From: an uncultured virus (IMG/VR IMGVR_UViG_3300043410_000946)
Lineage: Duplodnaviria > Heunggongvirae > Uroviricota > Caudoviricetes
Reading direction: 5' to 3' (one strand)
DNA length: 64,000 bases
IMG/VR virus record: IMGVR_UViG_3300043410_000946
This document shows positions 18,368 through 41,554 of the stretch, one piece after another (within the stretch, counting starts at the first letter, position 1; each line of letters starts with the position of its first letter). Below the pieces are notes generated by a model. The model saw only the letters and a list, made by a program, of their open reading frames with translations. It had not been told where the DNA came from and made no database searches. Both the position numbers and the translations under genes were made by a program.

Positions 18368-18394
18368 AATCCTGAGTAAGATTTAAAACTGCTC
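18368..18394 (+). ncRNA. Repeated 3'-UTR H-type pseudoknot, copy 1
   Basis: AATC-CT-GAGTA-A-GATT-TAAAAC-TGCTC. Confidence 0.65.
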
Positions 18395-18562
18395 AAAAAT
18401 TCCCGAGACCCTCGGCGCTGACGGCGTGTCGTGATCCATGTGAGATTTATCACATTAGTTGAGCGTCTCATTATTTGAAAATACTCCATAGTAACTTGAT
18501 AATTGTCGCACCCATAGTGTAAGATATTTATATCAAGTTAATTAAAGAAAGAAGGTCGCCTC

Positions 18563-18763
18563 ATGGCTAATCTATACTCCATCCCTTCCCTACTAGTGGG
18601 AAAGACATATCGCTCAAAGACCCTAACAGGTGAAATTGTAAGTGCAGAACCTCACCCTGCACCAATTTGGTATGAAGGCGCAGAAGCCTATCTAATTGAG
18701 GTTAAAAACCCTGCTTCTATTCACACCTCTTACAGAACAGTTGCAGTAAAGACTAGTAACTAG
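18563..18763 (+). CDS. Small early protein
   Basis: GAAGGT RBS after the 18504 promoter. Confidence 0.6.
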   Translation: MANLYSIPSLLVGKTYRSKTLTGEIVSAEPHPAPIWYEGAEAYLIEVKNPASIHTSYRTVAVKTSN

Positions 18764-18769
18764 GTAGGT

Positions 18770-18803
18770 GACTAGTCATGGGCGCCCCAACCTATGACTA
18801 GTC
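18770..18803 (+). terminator. Stem-loop after gene (terminator-like)
   Basis: GACTAGTCAT.../...ATGACTAGTC inverted repeat. Confidence 0.45.
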
Positions 18804-19120
18804 CTGTACCCACCAACCCATGACCATTCATATATAACAAAAGTTTATTAAGATAAAGGATTATGTCCATGTGATTTTGATCACAAAATAATTTTAAGAA
18901 ACTTTAAAAATATCCCCCAATTTGTCCCCACTTTAGGATAAGATTAAGTTATTAAGTAGAAAGAAGGAAGACCCATGGAAGATACTTGTATAGGTTGTAA
19001 TGAGAACGCAGTTAGCATTACAGAATTGTATTGCTTAGATTGCTACCTTGACCATTACGCAGAATCACTTGCAGTCGCAGAAGAAATTAACCAACTATTT
19101 ACAGTAAAGGAAGCCAACTA

Positions 19121-19336
19121 ATGGACTATGAATATGTAATTACAAGTGCCTATGACGGAGAAGCCCCTCATTGGACACAACGCTATGAAAAAGAATATGG
19201 CGCATGGGAGAATTTCTTTCTCTTTACTGATTGGGGTATGGCTAAGGAATACCGCACAGTTAATCTATACACACCAACAGGTAAGTGTTATACCAAGATA
19301 TTCTATCGTGACGGAAGGGTAGTAGTGAAAGCCTAA
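19121..19336 (+). CDS. Hypothetical early protein
   Basis: AAGGA RBS; 71 aa ORF. Confidence 0.6.
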   Translation: MDYEYVITSAYDGEAPHWTQRYEKEYGAWENFFLFTDWGMAKEYRTVNLYTPTGKCYTKIFYRDGRVVVKA

Positions 19337-19472
19337 TGAATACCTATGATATTTGTGGCTCAGTAAGAATTGTAGCCAACTCAGAAGATGAAGCGTTAGA
19401 TATAATGGACAACCTAGTCCGCCAAGCACTAATTGAAGATTACCATGTAAATGAAATTGAGGTACAGTAATA

Positions 19473-19811
19473 ATGGGATACACAACAGCGCAAGAACTAG
19501 CAACAATTCTAGACCTTAACTCAAGCCTTGCCATGCACTTACAGGCTAATCACTATCCGCCAGTACCTACTAGCATGGTACAGCCTTGTATAGATGCTAT
19601 AGATGCATATCACGATGAGGACTATCAGCGTGAGATTGAATTGCCTGAAGGCGTATCATGGCGTGGCAACACAACTGCCCCTGCCTCAGCCATTGTAGAG
19701 GCACACCACCTAGACGCATGGCTACCTCATGCATGGGATTGTGATTGTGGAGATTGTGTCTATGCTGCTAATGAAGATAATGGATATGAAATGGGATTGG
19801 GGTTAGAATAA
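19473..19811 (+). CDS. Hypothetical protein (HLxxNHYPPVP / HHLDAW motifs)
   Basis: GAGG RBS; His-rich motifs. Confidence 0.65.
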   Translation: MGYTTAQELATILDLNSSLAMHLQANHYPPVPTSMVQPCIDAIDAYHDEDYQREIELPEGVSWRGNTTAPASAIVEAHHLDAWLPHAWDCDCGDCVYAANEDNGYEMGLGLE

Positions 19812-19812
19812 A

Positions 19813-20061
19813 ATGGCTGATACAATGAAAAGCATGGAACTCGTATATGCAGATAAGTTAAACGCCTCCCAGTTAATGGTGGGGGACTTAATTAAAATTG
19901 ATGGTGACTTGGTTGAAGTAACCGCTATTGAAGATGACGCAACAGGTGATAACTATTCAATTACTTACACTAATGACTATGGTGATGAAGAAGTACATGA
20001 ATGCACATATGATGCAATATTCAAACTATATATCTATCGTGAAGAAGAAGTAGAAGACTAA
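19813..20061 (+). CDS. Small SH3/KOW-like protein
   Basis: LMVGDLIKIDG...VTAI pattern. Confidence 0.5.
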   Translation: MADTMKSMELVYADKLNASQLMVGDLIKIDGDLVEVTAIEDDATGDNYSITYTNDYGDEEVHECTYDAIFKLYIYREEEVED

Positions 20062-20293
20062 AATCCCCGAGACCGTGTGATCTTTCTCACATAGATCCAA
20101 TTTGACATTTTTAAGATATGTCTGCTAGTATTAAGTTATGAAGAAATCAGCAGAAGAATTACGCAGGCTTATGGAATTACGGCGTTCCAATGCAGCCTCT
20201 GCTGTACCCTCAAAAAAGAAATATACTCGCAAGGGTAGAAAATGTCAGGCAGAAATGCTACAATTAAAGTACAACCTAAAGTAAGGACCCCCT

Positions 20294-21013
20294 ATGAAAC
20301 TACTACGCTCTAAAGATAGAAAGGTGGCTAATCTTGTCACAAAAAATGGAAAGCAAGCAGCAATTGCAAATACCTTTGGATTACCTGCAGGAAAAAACTA
20401 TTCATGTCCTGGTGCAACGACTGTCTGCGAAAGTGTTTGCTACGCAGGTCGCCTTGAAAAAGTATTCCCAACAGTAAAAAAGAATCTACTTCATAACTGG
20501 AACCTACTTAAGGACGCTAATCTTGATGAGATGATTGTTATGCTTGAAGAGATGATTGTTGATTTCAAAAAAGATTGCGATAAGAAAGACGCCCCTAAGT
20601 TATTCCGCATTCACTGGGATGGCGATTTCTTTAATGATACTTATACTATGGCCTGGAAATATATAATTATTCAACACGATGATGTACAATTTTGGGTCTA
20701 TACTCGTGTAAAAGAATCTGCAGAAATGCTAAACGGATTAGAGAATCTTTCTTTGTACTATTCTACAGATAGCGACAATAAAGAGATTGGAATTAATCTA
20801 AAGAAGACCCAAGGTATCAAATTGGCTTATCTTGCTAAGAACTTTGCAATTGGTCAAGAAGACATGAAGGCCCTTACAAATAAGCCAGGCGCCAAGTGTC
20901 CTGAAAATAAAAAGGCCATTCCACTTATTAGCAATGCAGGCTCAGCATGTGTATCTTGCTCACTGTGTGTATTTAATAAGGCTGATATTGTATTCAGTGC
21001 GAGTAAGAAATGA
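20294..21013 (+). CDS. Gp88-like (radical-SAM-like Fe-S) phage protein
   Basis: FGLPAG..SCPGAT..C..VCYA; FRIHWDGDFF; FWVYTR; CP...CVSCSLC. Confidence 0.7.
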   Translation: MKLLRSKDRKVANLVTKNGKQAAIANTFGLPAGKNYSCPGATTVCESVCYAGRLEKVFPTVKKNLLHNWNLLKDANLDEMIVMLEEMIVDFKKDCDKKDAPKLFRIHWDGDFFNDTYTMAWKYIIIQHDDVQFWVYTRVKESAEMLNGLENLSLYYSTDSDNKEIGINLKKTQGIKLAYLAKNFAIGQEDMKALTNKPGAKCPENKKAIPLISNAGSACVSCSLCVFNKADIVFSASKK

Positions 21014-21330
21014 GTTTCTTATTCTATGCAGCAATGACAACGCTTGTACTTATAAGCATTCTAGGAGGAGCAGGGAACTAAGGATCCCCTGCAAAATCCT
21101 CGGCGCCCCTGTGATATTTATCACAAGATAATTTACGACTACGATTTGATATTTCTGAGATTTCCTGCTAGACTTATATCATAAGCAAAACCAAGATGGT
21201 CTGGCTTGTTTGGTGTGATTAAGGTCACAGTCCAAATAGTGAGATTATTAAGATTTTGATTTGTATTTCTGAGATTTTTCAGTTATACTTAATACATAAG
21301 GAAAACCCAAACAGAAAAGGAAAAACAAAA

Positions 21331-21495
21331 ATGGCAGTAGCAACACAGAACTACAAGGTAGGCGACCTCTTTACAACACAGAAGTCAAAGGTTACAGGAA
21401 CTATCGCAGAGATTATTCCACAGGCTAATGGTAATGTTCGTGTAAAACTTGATGTTAATGGTCAGGCTCGTTACACAACTTGGACAGCAAAGTAA
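21331..21495 (+). CDS. Small SH3-like protein
   Basis: AAAGGA RBS; YKVGD...GTI...VRVKL. Confidence 0.6.
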   Translation: MAVATQNYKVGDLFTTQKSKVTGTIAEIIPQANGNVRVKLDVNGQARYTTWTAK

Positions 21496-21561
21496 GTTTG
21501 GCAATAACGCCAAAATAAAAACACGCCCCACAGAAATGCGTGTCTAAACAAATAGAGTGGG

Positions 21562-21589
21562 ACAACCTGAGTAAGTTGTAAAACTGCTC
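21562..21589 (+). ncRNA. Repeated pseudoknot, copy 2
   Basis: ACAAC-CT-GAGTA-A-GTTGT-AAAAC-TGCTC. Confidence 0.65.
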
Positions 21590-21632
21590 ACTCAAAACCC
21601 CCAAAGACCCAAACAGAAAAGGAAATAACACA

Positions 21633-22046
21633 ATGGCTAGAGCAATCTCAGTTAAGGTAGCAACAACTAAGGTAATCAAGGCACTTGAGGCTTCACTTGC
21701 AAAGTTAGAAAGTGATTTTGCCTCACAAGAAGCAAACAAGGCAAAGTATGATGAGGCTAAGAAGGCTTGGGCAAAGGAAGTTGGAAAACTTGCAGTTGCT
21801 CAAATCGCAAAGGCTGAAAATCTATCTGCTAACAAGCGTTACAATGGTGAGATTAACCTTGACTTTAATCTCCCTGCTGGTTCTATTGAACTACCTGATG
21901 AACCACAGCAGGATTTTGTAACAATGCACTCATGGCAATATGAAAATCAAAAGAGTGAAATTGAAAATGCAATTCGTATTCTCAAGATGACTGATGAGGA
22001 AACAGTAAGTGCCTCAACTTTTAAGTCAATCGCTCAGTATCTCTAA
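21633..22046 (+). CDS. Hypothetical protein
   Basis: AAAGGA RBS; 137 aa. Confidence 0.7.
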   Translation: MARAISVKVATTKVIKALEASLAKLESDFASQEANKAKYDEAKKAWAKEVGKLAVAQIAKAENLSANKRYNGEINLDFNLPAGSIELPDEPQQDFVTMHSWQYENQKSEIENAIRILKMTDEETVSASTFKSIAQYL

Positions 22047-22055
22047 TTAACAAAC

Positions 22056-22082
22056 TCACCTGAGTAAGTGATAAAACTGCTC
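22056..22082 (+). ncRNA. Repeated pseudoknot, copy 3
   Basis: TCAC-CT-GAGTA-A-GTGA-TAAAAC-TGCTC, 4 nt before tRNA-Trp. Confidence 0.65.
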
Positions 22083-22086
22083 ACCT

Positions 22087-22157
22087 ATCGCCCAAGTGTT
22101 ACGGTAGCATGACGATCTCCAAAGTCGTTGGACAAGGTTCAATTCCTTGGGGCGGTG
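22087..22157 (+). tRNA. tRNA-Trp(CCA)
   Basis: ATCGCCC/GGGCGGT acceptor; ACGAT-CTCCAAA-GTCGT; CAAGG-TTCAATT-CCTTG. Confidence 0.85.
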
Positions 22158-22286
22158 CAAAGTTTTGGCCCGATGGCCATGTGATTAATCTCACACCGTT
22201 ATGATCGTAGGTTTACGTCCTAGGATTTGCATTTGTCAGACCACCCTGCTAGAATTATATTATTACCCCCTACGAAAGGACATCTA

Positions 22287-22778
22287 ATGGGATTAGACAT
22301 GTATCTCTCAGCACGAAAGTATGTTGAGAAAATTGACTGGAAGAAAATGCAAGAGGACTATAACACTCCTTATGCAGATGCAACTTACCCTAACTATGCA
22401 GAGATTGTTTCTCTTGCAGGCTTGTCAGGATTAGATAAAGATATCTATGGCGCTCATGTTTCTGTAACTGCATTGTATTGGCGCAAGGCTAATGCGATTC
22501 ATAATTGGTTTGTTAATAATGTTCAGCATGGCAACGATGACTGTGGTGAGTACTATGTCTCCCATGAAAAAATAGCAGAGTTGCTAAATGTTTGTGAGGA
22601 AGCATACAAGACTAAGAACCATAAAGTCCTTGAGCCTATTGGTGGATTCTTCTTTGGTTCAACAGATATTGACGAGTGGTATTGGGAAAGTATCAAGCGC
22701 ACCATCAAGGAAATCAAGTCTATCAAGAAGCATAAAGACTATGACCGCTTATCCTTCTACTACTCTTCATCATGGTAG
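22287..22778 (+). CDS. Conserved phage protein (MGLDMY...YWRKANAIHNWF)
   Basis: GAAAGGA RBS; recognisable phage family motif. Confidence 0.7.
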   Translation: MGLDMYLSARKYVEKIDWKKMQEDYNTPYADATYPNYAEIVSLAGLSGLDKDIYGAHVSVTALYWRKANAIHNWFVNNVQHGNDDCGEYYVSHEKIAELLNVCEEAYKTKNHKVLEPIGGFFFGSTDIDEWYWESIKRTIKEIKSIKKHKDYDRLSFYYSSSW

Positions 22779-23359
22779 GAGATAGCATGGAATGGATTAA
22801 ATATTCATTTGTCTGTAATGGCGAATGCGATGCTTTGCTAGAGTTTACCTTCAAGGATGGCTTTGACTGGCCTAGTGGTGTGGTAGAAGTCACATGTCCT
22901 TGTGGGTCCAATACCACACTTTTGTCAGTGGATAATGCTACAATTAATAATAACAACGAACAGAAAGAAGATAGCCCAATGAATGCAACAACAGAATACC
23001 TTGAGTCAATGGTTTCATCCCTACAGGAGCAACTCAAGTCTCATCAGAACTGCGATTACTGGAAGCGTGAGAATGGCCGTATTCAGTCACAAATCATTGA
23101 CACACTTAATGATGCAATTGAAGATACCTATAAGTCACGCAATGAAATCATTACTGAGATTGCAGAAATCATTGACTATGCATTAACCAAAGAAATTCAA
23201 TTTACTGCAACAATGCGTTTTGTTGGAACCATTTCAGTACCAGCGCTTGAAGCAGAAGACTTTGATTTATCAGGAGTACTTGATGAAGCATATGTTGATA
23301 TTAATAATGGCGATGTAATTATTGACTCATATGAATTATATGATGCTGAAGAGTGTTAG
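22772..23359 (+). CDS. Hypothetical protein; Zn-ribbon N-terminal module plus C-terminal module with an internal start near 22980
   Basis: CNGEC...CPC; internal promoter at 22923. Confidence 0.55.
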   Translation: MVGDSMEWIKYSFVCNGECDALLEFTFKDGFDWPSGVVEVTCPCGSNTTLLSVDNATINNNNEQKEDSPMNATTEYLESMVSSLQEQLKSHQNCDYWKRENGRIQSQIIDTLNDAIEDTYKSRNEIITEIAEIIDYALTKEIQFTATMRFVGTISVPALEAEDFDLSGVLDEAYVDINNGDVIIDSYELYDAEEC

Positions 23360-23384
23360 TTTCTGATAGGGGGCTATCTAGAGA

Positions 23385-23411
23385 GGACCTGAGCATGTCT
23401 TTAAACTGCTC
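23385..23411 (+). ncRNA. Repeated pseudoknot, copy 4
   Basis: GGAC-CT-GAGCA-T-GTCT-TTAAAC-TGCTC. Confidence 0.65.
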
Positions 23412-23574
23412 CTCAATTCCCGCAAAAACCTCGGGGGCGCTGTGATTAATATCACACTGTGTTTAAGATCACCTTTAAGAAATGTCCGTTTTGCCCCATG
23501 TCTAACTAGTCTGATTTGCATTTGTCGCCCCTGACTGCTAGAATTATTACATATCAAAAAGAAAGAAGGAAAAA

Positions 23575-24591
23575 ATGGCTCATGAACTAGAAACTCAAAA
23601 CGGCGTTGCATCTTTTGCATCATTCAGAGAACCTGCTTGGCATGGTCTTGGAACTGTTTTCACAGAAGAAAAAACAACTGCACAAATGCTTGAGGCTGCG
23701 AACCTCTCTAATTGGAATGTTCGTCTTGAAGATGTAACAATGCCTACTAATCTTACATCAGATAAAAACTATCAGTATGTATTGCGTACTAACCCTACAG
23801 ATAATACTCAAACAGATGTTTTGGGTATTGTTGGAGAGCGTTACCATGTTATGCAAAATGAAGATTTATTCTCATTTGGTGATAACATTCTAGATGGTGG
23901 TGGTCGTTGGGAAACTGCTGGCGCTATTCGTGGTGGTCGTGTTGTGTTTGGCTCTCTTGCATTAGAGCGTGAAACAGTTCTAGACCCTAGCGGTGTTGCA
24001 GATAAGGTAAAAACTTATCTTCTCATTAACACATCACATGACGGGTCTATTGCAATTCAGGCTTCAATCACACCTGTTCGTGTTGTATGCGCTAACACTC
24101 TTAACATGGCACTTGGTCGCACAAAGCGTAAGGGTGGCGTAAAGCAATCTTTCAAGATTCGTCACACTCAAACAGCAAGTGGCAAGGTGCAGATTGCTCG
24201 TGAGACTCTTGGTCTTGCTAATGCATACATGGACGAATTCGACAAGATGGCAAAGCAACTTTTTGAAACAGAAGTTAATGCTAAAGTGTTTAACGACATT
24301 TTGCTTGCCTCATATCCAAAGCCTGAGAAAGATGCAAAGGGCGCAATCAAGAAGTGGGAAAACAAAATCGACACCATTAACGACATCTACACAGGTGAAT
24401 TTAATGGCATGATTGCTGGCACAGGCTGGGGCGCATTTAATGCACTTACAGAACGCCTTGATTGGTATCGCTCTGCTCGTGGTGGCAATAACGAATCTAT
24501 CTTGGCAAGTGCAAGTGGATTTGACCCTGCAATTAACGCAGAAAAGAATCGCTTGCTAACTGTTGTGCAGAATGTTTTGCAAGTAGCATAA
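23575..24591 (+). CDS. DUF932/DUF945-family phage protein
   Basis: MAHELE...PAWHGLG...WETAGAIRGGRVVF...NTSHDGS...PVRVVCANTL...IRHT. Confidence 0.85.
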   Translation: MAHELETQNGVASFASFREPAWHGLGTVFTEEKTTAQMLEAANLSNWNVRLEDVTMPTNLTSDKNYQYVLRTNPTDNTQTDVLGIVGERYHVMQNEDLFSFGDNILDGGGRWETAGAIRGGRVVFGSLALERETVLDPSGVADKVKTYLLINTSHDGSIAIQASITPVRVVCANTLNMALGRTKRKGGVKQSFKIRHTQTASGKVQIARETLGLANAYMDEFDKMAKQLFETEVNAKVFNDILLASYPKPEKDAKGAIKKWENKIDTINDIYTGEFNGMIAGTGWGAFNALTERLDWYRSARGGNNESILASASGFDPAINAEKNRLLTVVQNVLQVA

Positions 24592-24597
24592 CAAAAT

Positions 24598-24624
24598 AAT
24601 CCTGAGCATGATTTAAAACTGCTC
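24598..24624 (+). ncRNA. Repeated pseudoknot, copy 5
   Basis: AATC-CT-GAGCA-T-GATT-TAAAAC-TGCTC. Confidence 0.65.
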
Positions 24625-25156
24625 TCCGCTCTGCGGATCATAATAAATAAATATGCACGTGGATGCATAAAAATCCTCGGGGCCTGTGATGCAAATCACA
24701 TGACATTTCCTGTGGATAACTTTAAGATGAGTTGATATTTTTCCCCAAACCTGCTATCCTGAATACATGACTCAAACAACCTATAAACCATATACCATAG
24801 ACGAACTAGTTACCTCTATCTATGAGGATAACCTAGAACATTTTGAGCAATCTACAGAAGACTGTGATTGTATTATTCATCAAGCCATGTGGCTTATTGT
24901 CAAGCATTGGGAGGGATAATGTACGACATTAACAATAACTGTATTGTTTGTGATGAGTATATCTTTGACCAACATAAGAAGTCTTGTGAATACTATGTAG
25001 ATGAGGACTATTTAACATTTACTAGGCGTATTAGAGAGATAGCAAATAATACTGAGATTCATATGTGATGAAGATCACATTCAATACCCTGGCCCCTGAC
25101 TTGCATTTGTCAGACCAAAACCTTATAATTAATACATACAAGAAAAGGAGACCCAA

Positions 25157-25327
25157 ATGCCAACATATGATGTGAAGGTAGTCGTAGAATACTTCTATGA
25201 GGTAGAAGCAGATAACGCAGAGCAAGCAGAACAAATGGGCTGGGAATATGAAGACTATTCTTATGGCGCAGAAGTTTATTCCATTGATGTAGATGAACAG
25301 CCTGAAGAAGATGAGGAAGAAAACTAA
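25157..25327 (+). CDS. Small acidic protein (EVEADNAEQAE motif)
   Basis: AGGAG RBS after the 25108 promoter; read manually. Confidence 0.6.
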   Translation: MPTYDVKVVVEYFYEVEADNAEQAEQMGWEYEDYSYGAEVYSIDVDEQPEEDEEEN

Positions 25328-25739: not shown

Positions 25740-25768
25740 AATTAATATATAACCCAAAGGAGACCCAA

Positions 25769-32008: not shown

Positions 32009-32461
32009 GTGAGAGATTCAGTACAATACCTTGATGATTTAGCCAATCATTTTGCTCATCGTGATTGGGATTATACTAGAAATCATGGTATCAAGCATAT
32101 TAGATATGTGGATAATGATAGGGATGGTTTAGGATATAGGCTTGCAAGAAGTTTTAGATGGCTACTTAAGCGACCAGCATACTTTCCGCTATCTTTAAAA
32201 ATGAGTTTATGGCTTTCAGCATACGCTTTAAAGAAACAAGATAACTTACCAGATGGACATTTAGATGGCGGTAATGTAATCACTCATTGGGAAGAGACTG
32301 GAGAATATTTACAGATGGTTCAGCCTAGTGTTGGAGCATTACTAGTAAATTTTCTAAAAGAAGAACCTGATCATAAACATGCAAAGATAATTATTGCTGA
32401 ATTAGATAGACTATCAAACCGATATAGTGAAAGAATTAAGAATGGGGAAACAAGTGAATAA
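32009..32461 (+). CDS. Hypothetical protein
   Basis: 150 aa ORF in operon. Confidence 0.55.
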   Translation: MRDSVQYLDDLANHFAHRDWDYTRNHGIKHIRYVDNDRDGLGYRLARSFRWLLKRPAYFPLSLKMSLWLSAYALKKQDNLPDGHLDGGNVITHWEETGEYLQMVQPSVGALLVNFLKEEPDHKHAKIIIAELDRLSNRYSERIKNGETSE

Positions 32462-33620
32462 GATAACGGATAAACTAATTAATTGGGCTTCTATTGTAGA
32501 AGATGAGGCTTTGAATCAGGCTAAGAATACTTCTTCTATGCCTTTTGTATACCCCCACCTTGCACTGATGCCTGATGTTCACTTTGGTCGTGGCTCTACA
32601 GTAGGCTCTGTAGTCCCTACAAAGGGTGCTATCATGCCTGCATGTGTTGGAGTAGACATTGGCTGTGGAATGATGGCTGTAAAGACCTCACACAAGATTG
32701 AGAATCTTCCTGAATTAAATAAGCAGGGCATTCGTGAATCAATTCAATCACAAATTCCACTATCTGCTGGTAAGTATAATAATCGTATTAAGGATGATGC
32801 ACAAGATGAAGTAGCAATGCTTCAAGTATATGCTCGTGATGCAGGGTTTAATCCTGATGAACTAGATAAGAACTGGCGTGTGCAACTTGGATCACTTGGT
32901 TCTGGAAACCACTTCATTGAAGTAACAGTAGATGAGGATGGGTATGTTTGGTTATTCCTTCACTCTGGTTCTCGTGGTATTGGTAATAAGATTGCTTCAA
33001 AGCATATTAAGATTGCACAGAACTATTGTTCCGATATCGGTACTATACTTCCTGATCAAGATTTAGCATATCTTGTTGAAGGCACACCAGAGTTTAATGA
33101 GTATATTGCTCAAATGAACTGGGCACAAACATTTGCAATGATGAATCGTGAAGTTATGATGAAGCGTGTTAAGGCTGCATTCAAGTACCATGCTGGAGAG
33201 TTTGAAGTACTTGAAGAGGTTAACTGTCACCATAACTTTACTCAACAAGAAGAACACTTTGGTGAAAAACTTTGGATTACTCGTAAGGGTGCAATCTCTG
33301 CTAAGGCTGGGCAACTTGGTTTGATCCCTGGCTCAATGGGTGATTTGTCATATGTTGTTGAAGGGCTTGGAAACCCAATGTCTTATAATTCTGCTCCACA
33401 TGGTGCAGGTCGTCAGCATTCTCGTGGTTCTGCTCGTAAGACATTTACGATGGAAGACCTTGAGGAAAAAATGCAGGGTATTGAATGGTCACACTCTTCA
33501 GCATTCCTTGATGAGCACCCTGGTGCATACAAGCCTATTGACAAAGTAATGCAAGATGCTGTAGAATTAGTTAAAGTAAAGCACACATTCAAACAAATTA
33601 TTAATGTTAAGGGAGACTAA
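32442..33620 (+). CDS. rtcB: RtcB RNA ligase
   Basis: MPDVH.G.G, GVDIGCG, LGSGNHFIE, HSGSRG, HHN, RKGA, PGSMG, HGAGR, AYK, VKG. Confidence 0.95.
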   Translation: MGKQVNKITDKLINWASIVEDEALNQAKNTSSMPFVYPHLALMPDVHFGRGSTVGSVVPTKGAIMPACVGVDIGCGMMAVKTSHKIENLPELNKQGIRESIQSQIPLSAGKYNNRIKDDAQDEVAMLQVYARDAGFNPDELDKNWRVQLGSLGSGNHFIEVTVDEDGYVWLFLHSGSRGIGNKIASKHIKIAQNYCSDIGTILPDQDLAYLVEGTPEFNEYIAQMNWAQTFAMMNREVMMKRVKAAFKYHAGEFEVLEEVNCHHNFTQQEEHFGEKLWITRKGAISAKAGQLGLIPGSMGDLSYVVEGLGNPMSYNSAPHGAGRQHSRGSARKTFTMEDLEEKMQGIEWSHSSAFLDEHPGAYKPIDKVMQDAVELVKVKHTFKQIINVKGD

Positions 33621-33621
33621 T

Positions 33622-34002: not shown

Positions 34003-34006
34003 AAAG
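33913..34006 (+). repeat. 94-bp direct repeat, copy 2
   Basis: Near-identical to 30617-30710. Confidence 0.85.
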
Positions 34007-34107
34007 AATATTAAAGTGGGCTGATGAACACCCAACAACACTATACCTAATTCTATGCAGCACTTTTATAATTGTTGGGTCATTATTTTATGGTAGTGGG
34101 TGCAATA

Positions 34108-35142: not shown

Positions 35143-35256
35143 CGGCAATAGTAGTTTTGATTGGTTCTGGGATACACATCAAACCATGTCTGATGGAAAG
35201 ATATGGTGTGTAAATGTCAAGAGAGCCTAAGATTATGAAGATGGACTGGAAGTCCC

Positions 35257-35664
35257 TTGGATATGAAAGAGAGTATAAAGATGGAAGATTACGATGGGCT
35301 CCCATGGAAGTCTACAAGAATAGAGAGAACGAGGATAGTTCCACTAAGGCTGATTAGTAATTGGCTTGGTGGCATTGCTTCTGATCATTTACTCAAGGGT
35401 GTATTTCTTGATGAAGAGGGTAATTATGGATGGCGCTATAAATACCACGCAAAAATGTGGAAGTATTTAAATAAGCCCTATGAAAAATGGGGAACCTATT
35501 ATCGTCTTGACACAAGTTGGCTTGAGGGTTTACAATTAGACATGATGGGCTCTGCATGGGATGATTATGATAGTGATGGATTTGCTTATTGGGAATACTC
35601 ATGGCAGGAAGATCCAGTTACTGGTGATGCATGGAGAATTATAAAGCCTGACTTGCAAGGTTAA
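35257..35664 (+). CDS. Hypothetical protein (start uncertain)
   Basis: 135 aa ORF. Confidence 0.5.
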   Translation: MDMKESIKMEDYDGLPWKSTRIERTRIVPLRLISNWLGGIASDHLLKGVFLDEEGNYGWRYKYHAKMWKYLNKPYEKWGTYYRLDTSWLEGLQLDMMGSAWDDYDSDGFAYWEYSWQEDPVTGDAWRIIKPDLQG

Positions 35665-35718
35665 AAACTTTATGCTATAATTAAATAACAACCTTAACCA
35701 CTAGTGGGTTAAGTATTT

Positions 35719-35786
35719 ATCGTGGGTACTGGGTACTGATTGGCCTCCAAAACCGATCTTGCTGGGTTCGACTCCTAGACACGGTG
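35719..35786 (+). tRNA. Atypical tRNA-Trp(CCA) with reduced D-arm
   Basis: T-arm CTGGG-TTCGACT-CCTAG; anticodon loop CTCCAAA; D region only GTAC-TGG-GTAC. Confidence 0.55.
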
Positions 35787-35790
35787 CAAA

Positions 35791-35965
35791 CAAGGATCCG
35801 ACGGGAGACTTGGAATATGCCAGAACGAAGCGTTTGTCAGCAAGCGTGAGATTGGGCAGGTGGCCTTAACAGGTAAGACTAGTAATCTAAACACTTGGCA
35901 GGACTAAAGCGTATATCATACATTGATATTGTTGACTTGTCCTTGGTGGTAAAAGGCAATCCACC
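35791..35965 (+). ncRNA. Candidate multi-branched ncRNA in the tRNA operon
   Basis: Closing CAAGGA/TCCTTG, nested TGCCA/TGGCA and AGATT/AATCT, several hairpins; no ORF. Confidence 0.45.
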
Positions 35966-36044
35966 TATTCACAATTAAAAACTATTGCATGGGTTCTCTA
36001 AGTTGAAGCGATTGCAATAGTTTTTCTTTTGTAGTATACTAATA

Positions 36045-36121
36045 TGGCAGTGTAGAGCAGTTCGGAGTGCTCGTTGGCCTCATAAGCCAAAGGTCGTTGG
36101 TTCAAATCCAACCACTGCTAC
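36045..36121 (+). tRNA. tRNA-Met(CAT)
   Basis: TTGGC-CTCATAA-GCCAA; cloverleaf. Confidence 0.9.
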
Positions 36122-36202
36122 ATCACACACGCTTCAAGGTGGAGCAGCGGACTGTAAATCCGTCGTCGATAGACATGCTTGGTTCGATTCCAAGGTGTGG
36201 TA
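36122..36202 (+). tRNA. tRNA-Tyr(GTA)
   Basis: GCGGA-CTGTAAA-TCCGT; long variable arm. Confidence 0.85.
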
Positions 36203-36203
36203 C

Positions 36204-36280
36204 GCTCCATTAGTCCAATTGGTAGAGGCGCATGACTTAGGATCATGATGTTGGGAGTTCAAGTCTCTCATGGAGCACCA
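36204..36280 (+). tRNA. tRNA-Leu(TAG), short variable loop
   Basis: CATGA-CTTAGGA-TCATG; encoded CCA. Confidence 0.85.
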
Positions 36281-36281
36281 G

Positions 36282-36354
36282 GCCCCTCTAGCCCAGCGGT
36301 AGAGGCGGTGGACTTAAAATCCATACAGCACTGGTTCGAATCCAGTGAGGGGCA
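36282..36354 (+). tRNA. tRNA-Leu(TAA), short variable loop
   Basis: GTGGA-CTTAAAA-TCCAT. Confidence 0.85.
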
Positions 36355-36355
36355 C

Positions 36356-36511
36356 ATGGAAGAATATAAGGTAAGAAGAATGCTTGAACTAGCAAACAAA
36401 TTGCAAAAATTTGAAATAGCATTAAGATTGAAATGTGAGATTTGTGGACCAATCTTGCGTGGTGATAATCCTAATAGATATCCAAAATGTAAAAAACATA
36501 TTGACAAGTAG
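36356..36511 (+). CDS. Small Zn-finger protein inside the tRNA cluster
   Basis: ATG just after the tRNA; CEIC...C..H. Confidence 0.4.
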   Translation: MEEYKVRRMLELANKLQKFEIALRLKCEICGPILRGDNPNRYPKCKKHIDK

Positions 36512-36539
36512 GTTCGCACCTGCTATAATTAAATATATT

Positions 36540-36613
36540 GCGGATGTTGCATATTGGTAGTGCCTCTGCCTTCCAAGCAGAAGGGGTGAGTTCGATTCTC
36601 ATCATCCGCTCCA
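36540..36613 (+). tRNA. tRNA-Gly(TCC)
   Basis: TCTGC-CTTCCAA-GCAGA; encoded CCA; TTGACA/TATAAT promoter upstream. Confidence 0.9.
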
Positions 36614-36614
36614 G

Positions 36615-36686
36615 GCCTCCATCGTCTATCGGTTAGGACTTCAGATTTTCAATCTGGCAAGACGGGTTCGACTCCCGTTGGAGGTA
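36615..36686 (+). tRNA. tRNA-Glu(TTC)
   Basis: TCAGA-TTTTCAA-TCTGG. Confidence 0.9.
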
Positions 36687-36687
36687 C

Positions 36688-36770
36688 GGAAATATGGCAG
36701 AGTGGTCGAATGCAACGGTTTGCTAAATCGTAGATCGAAAGATCCATAGGTTCGAATCCTATTATTTCCG
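36688..36770 (+). tRNA. tRNA-Ser(GCT)
   Basis: ACGGT-TTGCTAA-ATCGT; variable arm GATC-GAAA-GATC. Confidence 0.9.
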
Positions 36771-36774
36771 CTGA

Positions 36775-36845
36775 TTCTCCTTCGTCCAACGGTAGGACTC
36801 CAGTTTTTGGCACTGGCAATCTTGGTTCGAATCCAGGGGGAGAAG
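36775..36845 (+). tRNA. tRNA-Gln(TTG)
   Basis: CCAGT-TTTTGGC-ACTGG. Confidence 0.9.
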
Positions 36846-36959
36846 CAAAGTTGACACAACGAGTGATTAGGAGTAGAATAGAACTATGCATCCTTTATTT
36901 GGTTTAGTATTTTTCTTTGCTGGTTGGTTTGTTTGTTATGTACAAATGAAAGATTATAA

Positions 36960-37427
36960 ATGAAACCTACTGCAATTATTTTTGATGTTGACGGAACACT
37001 AGCCAACATTGAGCCATATCTTCACCATATCAGAAATCTTGATAATGTGGATAACTTTAAAAAAGATTTTGATAAGTTTCATGAAGAGTCTGTTAATGCT
37101 AGACCTAACATGGAAGTTGTTCAAATGGTAAATCATGCTGTTGCTGATGGTCACGCCATTCTTGTTGTAACATCTAGAAAAGAAATGTGGAGACCACATA
37201 CTTCTATGTGGCTTGCAGTAAACGATATACGATCACATGCATTATTCATGCGTAGTAATAATGATGATAGAAAAGATTATGATGTAAAGCGTGACATATT
37301 AAAAAAGATTAATTCAATGTGGATAGTTGTCCACGCAGTTGATGATAATCCAGCAGTCATTAGACTGTGGGAAGAAAATAATATTCCAACTACAAAAATT
37401 GGGAATTGGGACGGAGATACGAATTGA
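36960..37427 (+). CDS. HAD-family phosphatase (T4 PNKP 3'-phosphatase-like)
   Basis: FDVDGTLA, VTSR, LFMR...DDR.D..VK, VDD. Confidence 0.8.
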   Translation: MKPTAIIFDVDGTLANIEPYLHHIRNLDNVDNFKKDFDKFHEESVNARPNMEVVQMVNHAVADGHAILVVTSRKEMWRPHTSMWLAVNDIRSHALFMRSNNDDRKDYDVKRDILKKINSMWIVVHAVDDNPAVIRLWEENNIPTTKIGNWDGDTN

Positions 37428-37663
37428 TTATACTATTAACAATATCTGCTTTTATTGGTGGGTATATTACATGTTATTTTGTTATGACAAGTGGAGTTGA
37501 ACAATAATGAGAAAGTATACTGTTGATCTTGGTGACGATGAGTTTATTACAATCCCAGAAAATATACGATACCAGATTGTTCAGGACCATCTAACTAAGT
37601 CGTACCACTGGGTGATTGGCTTTGGAATGCTCATTATAGGCTTTCTGTTGGGGGTTATAGCCT

Positions 37664-37933
37664 GTGGCTGATCCAAACCAGACACCTGCTAGGGGAGACT
37701 GGGCATGCCCCTGTAGTGGCTGCCAGAAGGCTGTAGCGTGGGAGAGAAAACAATTAATTCAGGCCTTAGTTGACTATGATATCTGGTACTTAAAATATCG
37801 TGGTTCATCATTTGACTCTATTACTGGAGAATTGCTATGGGCTAAAGATGATGCTGAAGCATTCCACGAAGGTATCCAGTATGCAATTAAACTAATTGAA
37901 GATAGAGCGCCAAAACCTAAAGCAAGAAAGTAA
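37664..37933 (+). CDS. Hypothetical protein
   Basis: CPCSGC motif. Confidence 0.5.
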   Translation: MADPNQTPARGDWACPCSGCQKAVAWERKQLIQALVDYDIWYLKYRGSSFDSITGELLWAKDDAEAFHEGIQYAIKLIEDRAPKPKARK

Positions 37934-37939
37934 AGACTA

Positions 37940-38013
37940 GCACCAGTAGCCAAGTTGGTCAAGGCCCCGAACTCATAATTCGGTTATCGTAGGTTCAAGT
38001 CCTACCTGGTGTA
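37940..38013 (+). tRNA. tRNA-Met/Ile2(CAT)
   Basis: CCGAA-CTCATAA-TTCGG. Confidence 0.85.
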
Positions 38014-38017
38014 CTAT

Positions 38018-38089
38018 ACCTCCGTAACTCAGCGGAAGAGTGACTGCCTTCTAAGCAGTAAGTCGTTGGTTCGAATCCAATCGGGGGTG
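38018..38089 (+). tRNA. tRNA-Arg(TCT)
   Basis: ACTGC-CTTCTAA-GCAGT. Confidence 0.9.
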
Positions 38090-38093
38090 CAAA

Positions 38094-38702
38094 TTAGAAA
38101 GAGATAATGATTTGATCTCTGTTAGATACTGCGTATCCTGAGAACAATTCATCTACTGCTTTTTTAGCGCCTGTTGCATATCCATCGTGAATATCGCAAA
38201 CAATCTTTCCACCCTTAGACATTCTGTCCTTAAAGAATAGTAGTGAGTCTTTTGTTGGCTGATAAAGATCAACATCGATATGTACCAATGCAAACTTTAC
38301 ATCCTTAACATCATTAAATCTATCTGGAATCCAGCCATTATAAAGTTTTACCTTTGGGTTTGCACCAAAAAGAGATAGTGCTCTTGTGATTGTAGATTCA
38401 AATGTGTTTGTGTTATAGAATGGATTGTCATTCTCACCAACTTCTGATAGTCCCTTCCAGGAATCGAATAAGTGTAGCATTGTCTTGTTGTGGTGCTCAA
38501 GGATAACTGCTGTTGATCCATAGAAAACTCCACACTCAGCAAAGTCACCGCTTATATCTGCCTGTTCTTTAGCAATGTTAAATAGGTTATAGATTCTTTC
38601 AAAATCAGGATTGCTCCTGTCATAATTTAGAGATGCATTTTTGCTCTCTATCTCATCAATTGACGCAATAAATTGTGCGTCTTGTTCCCAAGTTGTTGTC
38701 AT
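38094..38702 (-). CDS. TylF/MycF-family O-methyltransferase
   Basis: GDFAECGVFYG, LFDSWKGL, VHIDVDLY. Confidence 0.85.
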   Translation of the reverse strand: MTTTWEQDAQFIASIDEIESKNASLNYDRSNPDFERIYNLFNIAKEQADISGDFAECGVFYGSTAVILEHHNKTMLHLFDSWKGLSEVGENDNPFYNTNTFESTITRALSLFGANPKVKLYNGWIPDRFNDVKDVKFALVHIDVDLYQPTKDSLLFFKDRMSKGGKIVCDIHDGYATGAKKAVDELFSGYAVSNRDQIIISF

Positions 38703-38835
38703 TTTTCTCCCCTTTTACTTCTTTGGATGTTTTACTTCATACGGAGCAATCTTTGCTTTGATTGTCCCGTCTTTCCGCATTTTTACAATCCAACCATCTT
38801 TGATTTGTATTGGATTAAATGATCCACGCTTCTTC

Positions 38836-39453
38836 TTAGGCATCCTTATCACCTAATCTTACGTTATTTCTAGTAGGACGCATGTCTCTAAAATTAAAAA
38901 ATGATTCTTGAGGCTTTGGTTGTTCCTGTGGTTGTGGCTGTGGTGTTTCATCAGCCTTTCCTAGTGAAGCATCGTATGCTGCCATTTCTCTTTCTCCATC
39001 CATTCCGCCACATTGTGGGCATTGAGAACATGTTAGTTCATTTGCTGCACAGTAATCACATTCACAACCCTCATATGTTTGTGTTGGCATGATTGGATTT
39101 TCTGGCATTGGTTCATCTGCCTTTACGGTCCAGATATCTACAACTCTTTTATCTTTAATTCCTGATCCTATTTGTCTTCCAAAGTTCATCATGTATTGTG
39201 GCTTCTTCATTCCTGCTGCAGGATTAATATGTGAAGATGGATTTGCTGGAGTTGGATCTGTTACAGTAGCATTATAAGCAACATCCATTGGAGTTTCTGA
39301 CTTACTTGCATCTGGTACATTTGCATATAGTGCTCTTACTTGTGCACCTGCTTCTGCTTCTGTACCGTGGCATCCTGCGACATGTCCTTCATCGCTTACT
39401 ACTGGATATCCAGAGCAACCGTTAGAACCCTTTTCGCCAATATGGTATGGCAT
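38836..39453 (-). CDS. Hypothetical protein (MPYHI...GCSGYPVV...GCH N-terminus)
   Basis: 205 aa ORF. Confidence 0.6.
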   Translation of the reverse strand: MPYHIGEKGSNGCSGYPVVSDEGHVAGCHGTEAEAGAQVRALYANVPDASKSETPMDVAYNATVTDPTPANPSSHINPAAGMKKPQYMMNFGRQIGSGIKDKRVVDIWTVKADEPMPENPIMPTQTYEGCECDYCAANELTCSQCPQCGGMDGEREMAAYDASLGKADETPQPQPQEQPKPQESFFNFRDMRPTRNNVRLGDKDA

Positions 39454-39454
39454 G

Positions 39455-39910
39455 TTATTCCATCTCTACATCTTTAAGCGATGCACGAAGTTGCCAGCAC
39501 CACTTTTGAAGTGCAGTCTGACGATCTGCCATAAAATTTGCAAGACCATTCTGCTTTGCAGCAGTTGCAGCATCAAAACCTGCAATATATCTCATGATAG
39601 CAATATCGAATGAATTACATAGATCGGCAATCATAGATTCTGGATCTGTTGAAACTGGGTTTTCTGGAATAACACTTAGTGATGCCAGACGGGAAAGAGA
39701 AAATGGGGCATAAGAATTAACATCAAGCATTCGAATCCACTCAGCAAAGGTATCAATAGCACCATCTAGGTCAGCATAGATATCATCTAGTTTATCGTGC
39801 CACTGTGGGAAGTCATCTCCTTCAACATTCCAGTGATACCCCTTTGCTTTATAGGCCAAAGCAACGGCATCTGCTGTAAGACCCTTAAGTGTATTAATTA
39901 ACTCTTCCAT
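39455..39910 (-). CDS. dps: Dps / ferritin-like DNA protection protein
   Basis: YHWNVEG.DF...H...IY......D..AE; leaderless ATG after TGGTATAAT. Confidence 0.9.
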   Translation of the reverse strand: MEELINTLKGLTADAVALAYKAKGYHWNVEGDDFPQWHDKLDDIYADLDGAIDTFAEWIRMLDVNSYAPFSLSRLASLSVIPENPVSTDPESMIADLCNSFDIAIMRYIAGFDAATAAKQNGLANFMADRQTALQKWCWQLRASLKDVEME

Positions 39911-39928
39911 AACTACCATTATACCAGA

Positions 39929-41227
39929 CTATAATCTTTCAATACTAATAAAGTTATTGTTAAAACTTGGACCAAAAACCACACTTATTCTCCAGCCAAT
40001 CGTGTTTGATGTGTCTCTTAATAGCCATGTATCTGTTGCGCCTGCAACTGTAAACTGATAACTAGGAATAAGATATGTTGGTGTTGTTGTAATTGTGACT
40101 GCAGATCCTGATGGAATTGTTACGCCAGAGATACCGTTTTGTGAATAAACATCGCTACCATATACATTATAAGTTCCGCTTACTGTTGATAACTGTAAAC
40201 TGCGATTTCCAGATGCTGGTATTCTTGCCCTTAAATTACCTAACGTAACATCCACACCAGCATCTACAAACCCACTGGCTTTAAATAAAAATTCTCCACC
40301 AACACCTGAAGGTGCTTTTGTTAGATCAAGTGATACACCTCTTGCAGTACCACCTTGCTCAAAAATTCTTAATTGATTTCTATAAACATCTATTGTTACG
40401 CCACCATTAAGGCTTGTGTTGGTAACTGGTTTATTTAAAAACATTTCTCCACCTTCATCACCAGATGAGGTAGTAATATTAAATTTTCCAGAAAGAGAAA
40501 GGTCTGTTCCATCATATGTCAATCCAGCAAGGTTTGCAAGTGTTTGATTCTTCCACAAACTTGAAGCGGTATCGTAAGCAAGAATATCATTATCTGCAGG
40601 AGTAGAAGAATATCCACTACCAATTAAAACATCGTGTAATTCGTTAATCTCAAAACCATTTTGTACCTTAACAAAAATTTCACCATTGACTTGCTGTCCT
40701 CTTGTAACTACACCAAGAAAAACTAAATGTGCAGGTGCAACTGGCTTATTTGCTAAACCAAAGATATATGCTCCGTTTACTCCAAGCCAAACAGGATCTC
40801 CTGTATTTGCGGTAGATGTATCAATGCCTGCAACTAAACCTTCAGTAACAACATAAACAAAACCATTTTTTGAAACAGATGCTTCAGTTAAACCCATAGT
40901 CTTTGATGATGTAGACTCAGAAGCATTTGATGCAACATTTACTGGAATATTTGTTGAACTATTTCCATTGCCATTAAGAACTGTGTATACTGGTGTTCCT
41001 ACAGGAATAGTTGGATCTCCAATATACTTTACTTCATGCTTTACTGTACTTGTATAGTTTTGGATCCATTCAGTATTGTAATCTGTACCGTCGACTTTTG
41101 CAAGAATATCTCCAGCGTCTCCACCTGGTGGAACTCCAACACCATTTTCTCCATCGGCACCTGCAGGGCCAGTTGGCCCCATTGGGCCTGGTGCACCATT
41201 TGCGTCAGGGCTAGTGAAGCGTGACAT
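39929..41227 (-). CDS. Virion fiber protein with short collagen segment
   Basis: GAPGPMGPTGPAG; GG..GDILAK....YNTEW; QNGFEINELHDV. Confidence 0.65.
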   Translation of the reverse strand: MSRFTSPDANGAPGPMGPTGPAGADGENGVGVPPGGDAGDILAKVDGTDYNTEWIQNYTSTVKHEVKYIGDPTIPVGTPVYTVLNGNGNSSTNIPVNVASNASESTSSKTMGLTEASVSKNGFVYVVTEGLVAGIDTSTANTGDPVWLGVNGAYIFGLANKPVAPAHLVFLGVVTRGQQVNGEIFVKVQNGFEINELHDVLIGSGYSSTPADNDILAYDTASSLWKNQTLANLAGLTYDGTDLSLSGKFNITTSSGDEGGEMFLNKPVTNTSLNGGVTIDVYRNQLRIFEQGGTARGVSLDLTKAPSGVGGEFLFKASGFVDAGVDVTLGNLRARIPASGNRSLQLSTVSGTYNVYGSDVYSQNGISGVTIPSGSAVTITTTPTYLIPSYQFTVAGATDTWLLRDTSNTIGWRISVVFGPSFNNNFISIERL

Positions 41228-41502
41228 TATGGCTCAAGTCCAGTCTGTAAGATTGCAACATTTGCTCCATCTACATCTGAGATTGCATAAAGTGCATCTT
41301 TGCCAGGGAGTTCAATTGCCCAACCATTATTAGGAGCAATGCGATATCCATAATTTGTTGTAGTAACACCCTCTCCTCCAATAAACACATAAGCATCTGT
41401 GTTTACATTTTGAAGGGTAATGTCCATTCCAGAATGAAGTCCTGGTGGTGTTAGGCGTGTAGCCTCTGTATTGCTTAATGTTGTTAGGGCATGCATAGTC
41501 AT
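41227..41502 (-). CDS. Small virion-associated protein
   Basis: ITLQN...VFIGG..VT..NYG pattern; leaderless start. Confidence 0.55.
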   Translation of the reverse strand: MTMHALTTLSNTEATRLTPPGLHSGMDITLQNVNTDAYVFIGGEGVTTTNYGYRIAPNNGWAIELPGKDALYAISDVDGANVAILQTGLEP

Positions 41503-41528
41503 GCTGTAATTATACCATCATTATAATT

Positions 41529-41554
41529 GAGCAGTTTATAGACATACTCAGGTC
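41529..41554 (-). ncRNA. Repeated pseudoknot, copy 6
   Basis: Minus strand GAC-CT-GAGTA-T-GTC-TATAAAC-TGCTC just after the holin-like gene stop. Confidence 0.6.

What the first reader, a model, noticed from the sequence alone, without database searches (positions are those of the whole stretch)
18368..41554. Six copies of a compact, covarying H-type pseudoknot in 3' UTRs
Seen: consensus NNNC-CU-GAGYA-W-GNNN-WWAAAC-UGCUC at 18368, 21562, 22056, 23385, 24598 (+) and 41529-41554 (-). Stem 1 changes sequence yet keeps pairing (AAUC/GAUU twice, ACAAC/GUUGU, UCAC/GUGA, GGAC/GUCU, GAC/GUC). Stem 2 GAGYA/UGCUC alternates C-G and U-G, which points to RNA and to this strand. Every copy is in sense orientation about 6-70 nt after a stop codon, and one abuts tRNA-Trp. 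The invariant CU and AAAC loops suggest triplex or ligand contacts. I do not recognise it as a known family. Inference: a 3' exonuclease block, a processing signal, a protein-binding tag, or a released decoy RNA (type III antitoxins are pseudoknots of similar size).
Basis: partly seen in the sequence, partly recalled or inferred. Interest (0 to 1): 0.8.

Follow-up and report, generated by a model that had tools for sequence, protein, structure and literature searches.

The report
Gene-end RNA knot of phages
The six repeats are real copies of a tiny knotted RNA fold that many phages, some bacteria and some RNA viruses place just past the end of a gene; it resembles a nuclease-blocking RNA of plant viruses and most likely caps the end of the upstream message, though its job is untested.

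Summary
All six copies are confirmed. They belong to a widespread 27-nt H-type pseudoknot family with no Rfam match. Both stems covary: with stem 2 left free in the search, 214 of 226 copies keep at least 4 of 5 pairs and only 63 keep GAGYA/URCUC. The knot starts at the edge of a terminating ribosome (stop-to-core distance 8-12 nt in 81 of 197 lineages). RNA-end-making features lie on its 3' side: tRNAs 36 vs 2 upstream, hammerheads 7 vs 1, U-tracts about threefold enriched. Its fixed core lines up with coremin, the Xrn1-blocking RNA of plant viruses, and the same knot occurs in RdRp-encoding RNA-virus contigs. It fails two coremin tests (loop consensus; second hairpin far rarer) and occurs in genomes without RNase J. 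Best reading (about 0.42): a 3' cap on the upstream mRNA. Rivals: a 5'-to-3' RNase J block (0.22) or a ribosome bumper (0.16). No function was tested. This scan already reported the element on other DNA (eight notes listed); added here are unbiased stem-2 covariation, RNA-virus copies, RNase J-less hosts and a chromosomal peptide class.

The parts
18368..18394 (+). Pseudoknot copy 1; stem 1 begins 6 nt after the stop of ORF 18209-18361; followed by a short GC hairpin and the next early-promoter cassette
21562..21589 (+). Pseudoknot copy 2; core 70 nt after the stop at 21495, 43 nt before the start of ORF 21633-22046
22056..22082 (+). Pseudoknot copy 3; stem 1 begins 9 nt after the stop of ORF 21633-22046; ends 4 nt before tRNA-Trp
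22087..22158 (+). tRNA-Trp(CCA); its 5' cut by RNase P (inferred) would leave copy 3 at the 3' end of the upstream mRNA
   Evidence: processing is inference
23385..23411 (+). Pseudoknot copy 4; core 28 nt after the stop of ORF 22772-23359; followed by an early-promoter cassette
23575..24591 (+). DUF932 / TIGR03299 gene, the commonest named gene upstream of the knot in other loci (15 of 84 upstream ORFs scanned)
24598..24624 (+). Pseudoknot copy 5; stem 1 begins 6 nt after the DUF932 stop; directly followed by a 5-bp hairpin, then a promoter-like site at 24732
41529..41554 (-). Pseudoknot copy 6; core 8 nt after the stop of ORF 41561-41860 (-), 26 nt before the start of ORF 41227-41502 (-)

Best explanation
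A compact, tertiary-stabilised H-type RNA pseudoknot (3-4 bp stem 1 closed by C-G, 2-nt loop CU, 5-bp stem 2 starting with A-U, 1-nt linker, 6-nt loop ending AAAC) that acts in cis as a gene-end boundary. It sits just outside the footprint of the ribosome terminating at the upstream stop codon, so it stays folded. A new RNA end is then made a few bases 3' of it (RNase P at a tRNA, a hammerhead, a U-rich cut or stop site, or the end of the transcription unit). The knot becomes the last structure of the upstream mRNA and slows 3'-to-5' exonucleases (PNPase, RNase II/R), raising output of that gene. Shown: fold by covariation, spacing, 3'-side bias of processing features, spread. Inferred: base triples, the cuts, nuclease resistance, effect on expression.
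For: tRNA within 130 nt downstream in 36 of 614 copies (gap 2-8 nt in 30) vs upstream in 2 of 616; hammerhead core downstream in 7 copies vs upstream in 1 (Rfam Hammerhead_3 matches). In L163 two successive genes each end gene-knot-hammerhead. U-rich tract right after the knot in 90 of 342 lineages vs 23-35 at other offsets. Upstream neighbour same-strand in 149, opposite in 16, none in 19 of 184 lineages; downstream 129, 32, 23. Upstream gene families recur while the downstream side varies: DUF932 15, DUF7249 6, RNR 4, anti-restriction 2 of 84. In this window copies 1, 4 and 5 end a unit just before the next promoter cassette. The DUF932 gene of Streptomyces phage Jay2Jay has a GC-rich inverted repeat in this place and no knot. 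Present where no RNase J passed the cut-off (G008, G009, G012; G003-G006) and in crAss phages. Engineered precedent: pseudoknots and xrRNAs protect pegRNA 3' ends (PMC8986804, passages).
Against: No experiment or read data. A plain hairpin would do as a 3' cap, so the conserved tertiary core is not explained; that core matches folds that resist attack from the 5' side. tRNA-linked copies are not independent (7 of 342 lineage representatives). In Firmicutes phages it sits before scaffold and capsid genes (8 of 85 downstream ORFs), where stabilising the downstream part would make more sense. In chromosomal peptide units it is followed by a hairpin-U terminator, making a cap partly redundant. In RNA-virus contigs 250 nt or more of RNA follows. 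A simple terminator or promoter scan showed no downstream bias (7 vs 7 and 2 vs 3 of 184).
Confidence: 0.42

Rival explanations
1. A prokaryotic xrRNA: it blocks 5'-to-3' decay (RNase J; Xrn1 in the RNA-virus copies), protecting the downstream cistron or tRNA, or leaving a stable small RNA that begins at the knot.
For: Same closing C-G pair, first loop C, stem length and AAAC-U register as coremin; a 7-nt loop one base shorter than this one blocks Xrn1 (PMC10520033); a Watson-Crick variant exists 8 nt into a viral 3' UTR (PMC10321173). The same 8-nt-loop knot follows the RdRp ORF in four RdRp-positive contigs, two of them in the gap before capsid genes. It precedes scaffold/capsid genes and the DUF2800 RNA. 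One partial hit in 5,426 E. coli genomes with one query variant.
Against: The second hairpin that coremin needs is far rarer: 24 of 214 (shuffles 9-17) vs 23 of 41 for coremin (shuffles 4-8); 37 of 391 vs 21-30. Loop position 2 is U, not the required G. Present in genomes with no RNase J over cut-off. A hammerhead cut 6-11 nt downstream, or a new promoter, leaves little to protect.
Confidence: 0.22
2. A ribosome bumper: a defined-sequence ribosome termination structure that stops post-termination scanning or re-initiation into the downstream tRNA, ribozyme, operator or gene.
For: Stem 1 most often starts 5 nt after the stop (distance 8: 35 of 197 lineages; -4 to 7: only 7), i.e. +9 from the first stop base, the offset used for RNA outside the entry tunnel in PMC7518266. 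Coremin stalls scanning ribosomes, and its Watson-Crick form frameshifts without the second hairpin. Coremin copies sit further out (13-20 nt in 14 of 38), as a larger ribosome would predict (inference).
Against: Genome compaction plus avoidance of stalls explains the spacing without a ribosome role. 80 of 197 lineages lie more than 20 nt away; two window copies lie at 28 and 70. In at least 15 chromosomal loci the ribosome must read into the knot because its UGA is the stop.
Confidence: 0.16
3. A pseudoknot-type intrinsic terminator or pause: stem 2 plays the hairpin and the following U-tract releases RNA polymerase.
For: At least 6 U in 8 nt directly after the knot in 55 of 342 lineages vs 7-14 at other offsets.
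Against: About three quarters of lineages and all six window copies lack the U-tract; U-tracts are as common before a nearby ribosome-binding site (19 of 75; 16 of 39) as elsewhere (51 of 206); tRNAs and hammerheads follow directly.
Confidence: 0.08
4. A protein-binding tag or released decoy RNA (for example a type III antitoxin mimic), possibly handled by the phage RtcB/Pnk.
For: Fixed unpaired bases; knot plus hammerhead could release a short RNA; the window encodes RtcB and a Pnk-type phosphatase.
Against: Stem 2 sequence is free; spread over many bacterial phyla and RNA viruses needs a universal partner; copies are single and gene-anchored, not tandem; RtcB and Pnk are explained by the 13 tRNAs.
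Confidence: 0.08
5. A small self-cleaving ribozyme or metabolite aptamer.
For: Size and loop layout resemble small aptamers (recalled); it neighbours known ribozymes.
Against: No Rfam match even at E 10 on 121 nt; neighbours are unrelated genes; it sits after stops rather than in leaders; a hammerhead next to it would be redundant.
Confidence: 0.04

Closest known systems
Coremin / xrRNA-C of beny-, cucumo-, umbra-, hypo- and chrysoviruses (PMC6546385, PMC10520033)
   Same: 3-4 bp hairpin closed by C-G, loop starting with C and ending A-(A/U), 6-nt spacer ending AAAC followed by U; placed just after or around stop codons; tandem copies occur.
   Different: Loop is 8 nt with U at position 2 (coremin needs YG...AD); loop-spacer pairing is a full 5-bp covarying stem; second hairpin only weakly enriched; found in DNA phages and bacteria; the exact coremin pattern gave 47 viral loci, all on contigs of 10.4 kb or less.
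xrRNA-WCC (Watson-Crick coremin; SPlV5; PMC10321173)
   Same: Canonical H-type pseudoknot on the coremin scaffold; natural example 8 nt into a 3' UTR.
   Different: WCC has a 4-nt loop, 3-bp stem 2, G as loop 1 and a G-C junction pair; here 8-nt loop, 5-bp stem 2, CU loop 1, A-U junction pair (215 of 226).
Luteoviral P1-P2 frameshift pseudoknots (BWYV type; described in PMC10321173)
   Same: Compact H-type fold, C in loop 1, A-rich loop over the stem-1 minor groove, 5-9 nt from the A-site codon.
   Different: Follows stop codons; no slippery-site enrichment (10 vs 11 of 618).
Ribosome termination structure (PMC7518266)
   Same: Stable structure beginning at the edge of the terminating ribosome.
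   Different: RTS is a statistical folding signal with no fixed fold or sequence; this is one conserved tertiary motif.
Type III antitoxin repeats and preQ1-I aptamers (recalled)
   Same: Similar size and H-type layout.
   Different: No Rfam match; not tandem, no toxin partner seen; not in leaders of queuosine genes.

Membership tests
Coremin (xrRNA-C) | Short hairpin 1 with pyrimidine-purine closing pair | tested here: met
   C-G in all six copies; next two pairs Watson-Crick in 388 and 385 of 391. The closing pair was fixed by the search patterns; 2 G-C and 1 U-A variants seen.
Coremin (xrRNA-C) | Spacer ending A-A-A-C-U at conserved distance | tested here: met
   All six copies; U after AAAC, paired with loop A, in 215 of 226 when left free.
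Coremin (xrRNA-C) | Loop consensus YGAD / YGNNAD (G at position 2) | tested here: not met
   Loop is CUGAGYAW; position 2 is U, or C in 5 variants; consensus.
Coremin (xrRNA-C) | Second hairpin directly after the spacer | tested here: not met
   24 of 214 (shuffles 9-17) vs coremin control 23 of 41 (shuffles 4-8); 37 of 391 vs 21-30.
Coremin (xrRNA-C) | Stalls Xrn1 or another 5'-to-3' exonuclease | not testable with these tools
   Needs an in vitro assay.
xrRNA-WCC | Watson-Crick loop-spacer pseudoknot | tested here: met
   214 of 226 keep at least 4 of 5 pairs with compensatory changes.
xrRNA-WCC | 4-nt loop, G in loop 1, G-C junction pair | tested here: not met
   8-nt loop, C-U, A-U junction.
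-1 frameshift pseudoknot | Slippery heptamer 5-9 nt upstream | tested here: not met
   10 vs 11 control of 618.
Readthrough pseudoknot | Open frame continuing past the stop | tested here: inconclusive
   At least 30 open codons in 46 of 271 in frame vs 36.5 in other frames; median 9 vs 5.
Intrinsic terminator | U-tract directly after the stem | tested here: not met
   0 of 6 window copies; 167 of 618 family copies, enriched but a minority.
Type III antitoxin | Tandem pseudoknot repeats before a ToxN/TenpN/CptN gene | tested here: not met
   Dispersed single copies; no Rfam hit; no such toxin among 75 of the window's ORFs scanned with PHROGs. Features recalled.
Any Rfam 15 family | Covariance-model match | tested here: not met
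   window; 40 other loci.

The most novel reading that the evidence does not exclude
The knot is the prokaryotic, fully base-paired form of coremin: one mechanical RNA fold shared by DNA phages, bacterial chromosomes and RNA viruses, parked at the ribosome's edge, that blocks 5'-to-3' machines (RNase J, Xrn1, post-termination ribosomes) and also caps 3' ends. It would be a first exonuclease-resistant RNA class of bacteria and phages, and a likely ancestor or sister of the plant-virus motif whose structure is unsolved.
Probability: 0.3. Interest if true: 0.85.

Novelty: new variant of a known kind. Interest (0 to 1): 0.68.

Why it matters
A 27-nt sequence-and-structure-conserved RNA that spans phages of many phyla, bacterial chromosomes and RNA viruses, yet is missing from Rfam, is unusual. 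It gives a fully paired, natural version of coremin, whose fold had not been solved in the 2023 papers read, and so a tractable structural model. If it blocks nucleases it adds a phage tool for shaping mRNA ends and gene dosage and a compact part for RNA engineering. Cultured phages carry it (Labelle, Amigo, ParMal1, CR191, phiNM4), so its direction of action can be tested directly.

Tried and rejected
Rfam at gathering and E-value thresholds: no hit to the motif. Expression data: no RNA holder listed for 18000-25200, so no reads were laid. No whole genome is held for the window; the nearest virus record (G001) holds one copy, identical to copy 6. Literature searches for the motif letters, DUF805, small pseudoknot motifs and xrRNA with RNase J found nothing relevant; 6 supplement files of PMC10690425 had no match, 3 could not be searched; the supplement of PMC5737381 could not be read, so a prior listing there is not excluded. 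Rejected: a DNA-level promoter or operator (strand-specific G-U pairs, covariation); frameshift signal; selenocysteine readthrough in the peptide class (a second stop follows at once in several loci); a hidden ncRNA gene upstream of the chromosomal copies (it is a short ORF). Peptides had no Pfam or NCBIfam match. No covariance model, R-scape test or phylum-wide prevalence survey was run.
Full report
Observation. With up to two mismatches the pattern finds only these six and none in 100 shuffles; a descriptor that demands only the pairing and the core finds the same six and none in 20 Markov controls. Counted on the six, 98.1% of cells pair, three of four stem-1 pairs change on both sides, and sliding the partners drops pairing to 28-44%. 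The window is part of a tailed phage with 13 tRNAs, RtcB and a Pnk-type phosphatase. The best 15 protein matches of its DUF932 gene are Streptomyces phages, so an actinobacterial host is likely (inference). Rfam 15 has no match to the motif in the window or in 40 other loci.

Family and fold. Genome records name Saccharibacteria, Aminicenantes, cyanobacteria, Firmicutes, Proteobacteria, Bacteroidota and others; some are probably phage contigs in bins. In 391 distinct copies the two pairs next to the closing C-G are Watson-Crick in 388 and 385 (167 and 142 expected), the third pairs in 295, the fourth is at chance; the Y-R pair of stem 2 is C-G 273, U-G 106, U-A 12, never C-A. Because that pattern fixed stem 2, I ran two scans that fixed stem 1 and the loops and left stem 2 free. 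Of 226 distinct copies, 214 keep at least 4 of 5 pairs and only 63 keep the window's sequence; the middle pair is G-C 151, A-U 43, U-A 9, C-G 4, and the junction A-U holds in 215. Both stems are therefore real. The fixed part is the closing C-G, the first loop C, the A-U junction and AAAC; these were largely fixed by my patterns, and only 11 near-variants were seen among secondary hits. Base triples are inferred.

Position. Of 373 copies with enough flank, grouped into 216 lineages, 197 had an upstream ORF. The stop ends 8-12 nt before the closing C in 81, exactly 8 nt in 35, and between -4 and 7 nt in only 7; 80 lie beyond 20 nt; the opposite-strand control gives 3 of 211 at 8-12. Annotated phages agree: the gene ends 8 nt before the match in Labelle, ParMal1 and Amigo. 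A distance of 8 puts the first paired base at +9 from the first stop base, the offset taken as the edge of the ribosome entry tunnel in PMC7518266 (passages). There is no slippery-site signal (10 vs 11 of 618) and only a weak open-frame excess (46 vs 36.5 of 271).

What lies on each side. Among 629 distinct copies, a tRNA follows within 130 nt in 36 of 614 (gap 2-8 nt in 30) and precedes in 2 of 616; a hammerhead core follows in 7 and precedes in 1. These are not independent: 7 of 342 lineage representatives have the tRNA. A U-rich tract follows directly in 90 of 342 lineages against 23-35 at other offsets, but not in any window copy and no more often at unit ends. I scanned 84 of 96 upstream and 85 of 95 downstream ORFs, leaving out close duplicates by eye: upstream gave DUF932 15, DUF7249 6, ribonucleotide reductase 4, anti-restriction 2, Hsp20 1; downstream gave head scaffold 8, PhoH 3. 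In this window copies 1, 4 and 5 close a short early unit just before the next promoter cassette, copy 3 precedes tRNA-Trp, and copies 2 and 6 lie between co-directional genes. The DUF932 gene of phage Jay2Jay carries a GC-rich inverted repeat and no knot (one example). Against a pure 3' role, Lactobacillus, Anoxybacillus and Staphylococcus phages place it between the minor head genes and scaffold plus capsid.

Link to coremin. Earlier notes of this scan pointed to coremin; I checked it. I read parts 1-4 of 6 of PMC10520033 and PMC10321173 and passages of PMC6546385. Coremin has the same short stem closed by C-G, a loop starting with C, and a spacer whose A16-A20 are essential; a 7-nt loop CGAGUAA, one base shorter than this loop, blocks Xrn1; it stalls scanning ribosomes; a Watson-Crick form exists. 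Two defining features fail here: G at loop position 2, and the second hairpin (24 of 214, shuffles 9-17, against 23 of 41 for coremin, shuffles 4-8). The exact coremin pattern occurs in 47 viral loci, all on short contigs, and lies further from the stop (13-20 nt in 14 of 38). New here: of 19 loci on short contigs that I examined, four carry the 8-nt-loop knot after a Pfam RdRp ORF, one with two tandem copies before an S-domain coat gene and one before a dicistro-like capsid gene. So the same knot is used by RNA viruses of lineages usually eukaryotic (own knowledge). It works like a coremin-type boundary in layout but is not a member by the published criteria.

Hosts. RNase J passed the cut-off in 1 of 5 and 2 of 5 genomes tested; it was not found in two single-chromosome records (G008, G009) whose knot is chromosomal, and crAss phages carry the knot. 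Bins can be incomplete. One 36-nt variant gave one partial hit in 5,426 E. coli genomes; four variants against cultured phages listed mainly phages of Firmicutes, Actinobacteria, cyanobacteria, alphaproteobacteria, Vibrio and crAss types (one search showed 60 of 144 rows). This is a hint, not a survey.

A chromosomal class. Of 177 copies without a long ORF close upstream, 17 have a Shine-Dalgarno-led short ORF whose stop is the knot's own UGA; 15 encode a 20-26 residue peptide with a His-Cys...Gly-Cys pattern. Several have a promoter before and a terminator after, and neighbours vary. No Pfam or NCBIfam match. The last Cys codon lies 7 nt before stem 1, inside the usual spacing, which may be chance.

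Verdict. The fold, spacing and spread are shown; function is not. The 3'-side bias of end-making features, the recurring upstream genes, the missing second hairpin and RNase J-less hosts favour a 3' cap (0.42); 3'-joined pseudoknots do stabilise engineered RNAs (PMC8986804, passages). The tertiary core, the RNA-virus copies and the scaffold placement keep a 5'-to-3' block (0.22) and a ribosome bumper (0.16) alive, and these may coexist. I found no paper describing it in ten searches; two key supplements could not be fully read. The scan has reported it before on other DNA. New variant of a known kind; interest 0.68.

Noticed in passing
window 15380-25100: Repeated early-gene cassettes: CCTCGG-type hairpin (7 of 8 in this stretch), GTGAY-N4-RTCAC palindromes (8), extended -10 promoter-like sites (5) and DnaA-box-like 9-mers (15592, 15604, 24711); looks like a regulated early promoter array.
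   Followed up: partly
window 17330-17352: Possible decayed copy: GAGTAA and CTGCTC remain after a stop codon but stem 1 is gone.
   Followed up: no
window 32427-33620 and 36960-37427: RtcB-family RNA ligase and Pnk-type phosphatase beside a tRNA cluster: a tRNA repair kit.
   Followed up: partly
L140, L148, L150, L154, L158, L169, L176, L180, L185 near the match: Unannotated-type 20-26 aa Cys peptide genes of anaerobic bacteria, as stand-alone promoter-ORF-knot-terminator units, ending at the knot's UGA.
   Followed up: partly
L163 1448-1830: Genes separated by repeated knot-plus-type III hammerhead units; further variant knots nearby.
   Followed up: partly
L192 1526-1686, L216 1342-1499: Rfam DUF2800 RNA begins 1 nt after the knot.
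   Followed up: partly
L220 about 250-400: The knot lies between two copies of a CRISPR-like repeat, apparently as a spacer taken from a phage.
   Followed up: no
L722 about 800-1010; L760 about 2960-3150: RNA-virus contigs (tombus-like; dicistro-like) with the knot between RdRp and capsid genes, tandem in L722.
   Followed up: partly
L077, L102, L121, L130, L133, L094 upstream of the match: A recurring GC-rich hairpin element (GGGUCGC-ACCC-like) just upstream of the knot in marine or freshwater phages; no Rfam hit in those tested.
   Followed up: no
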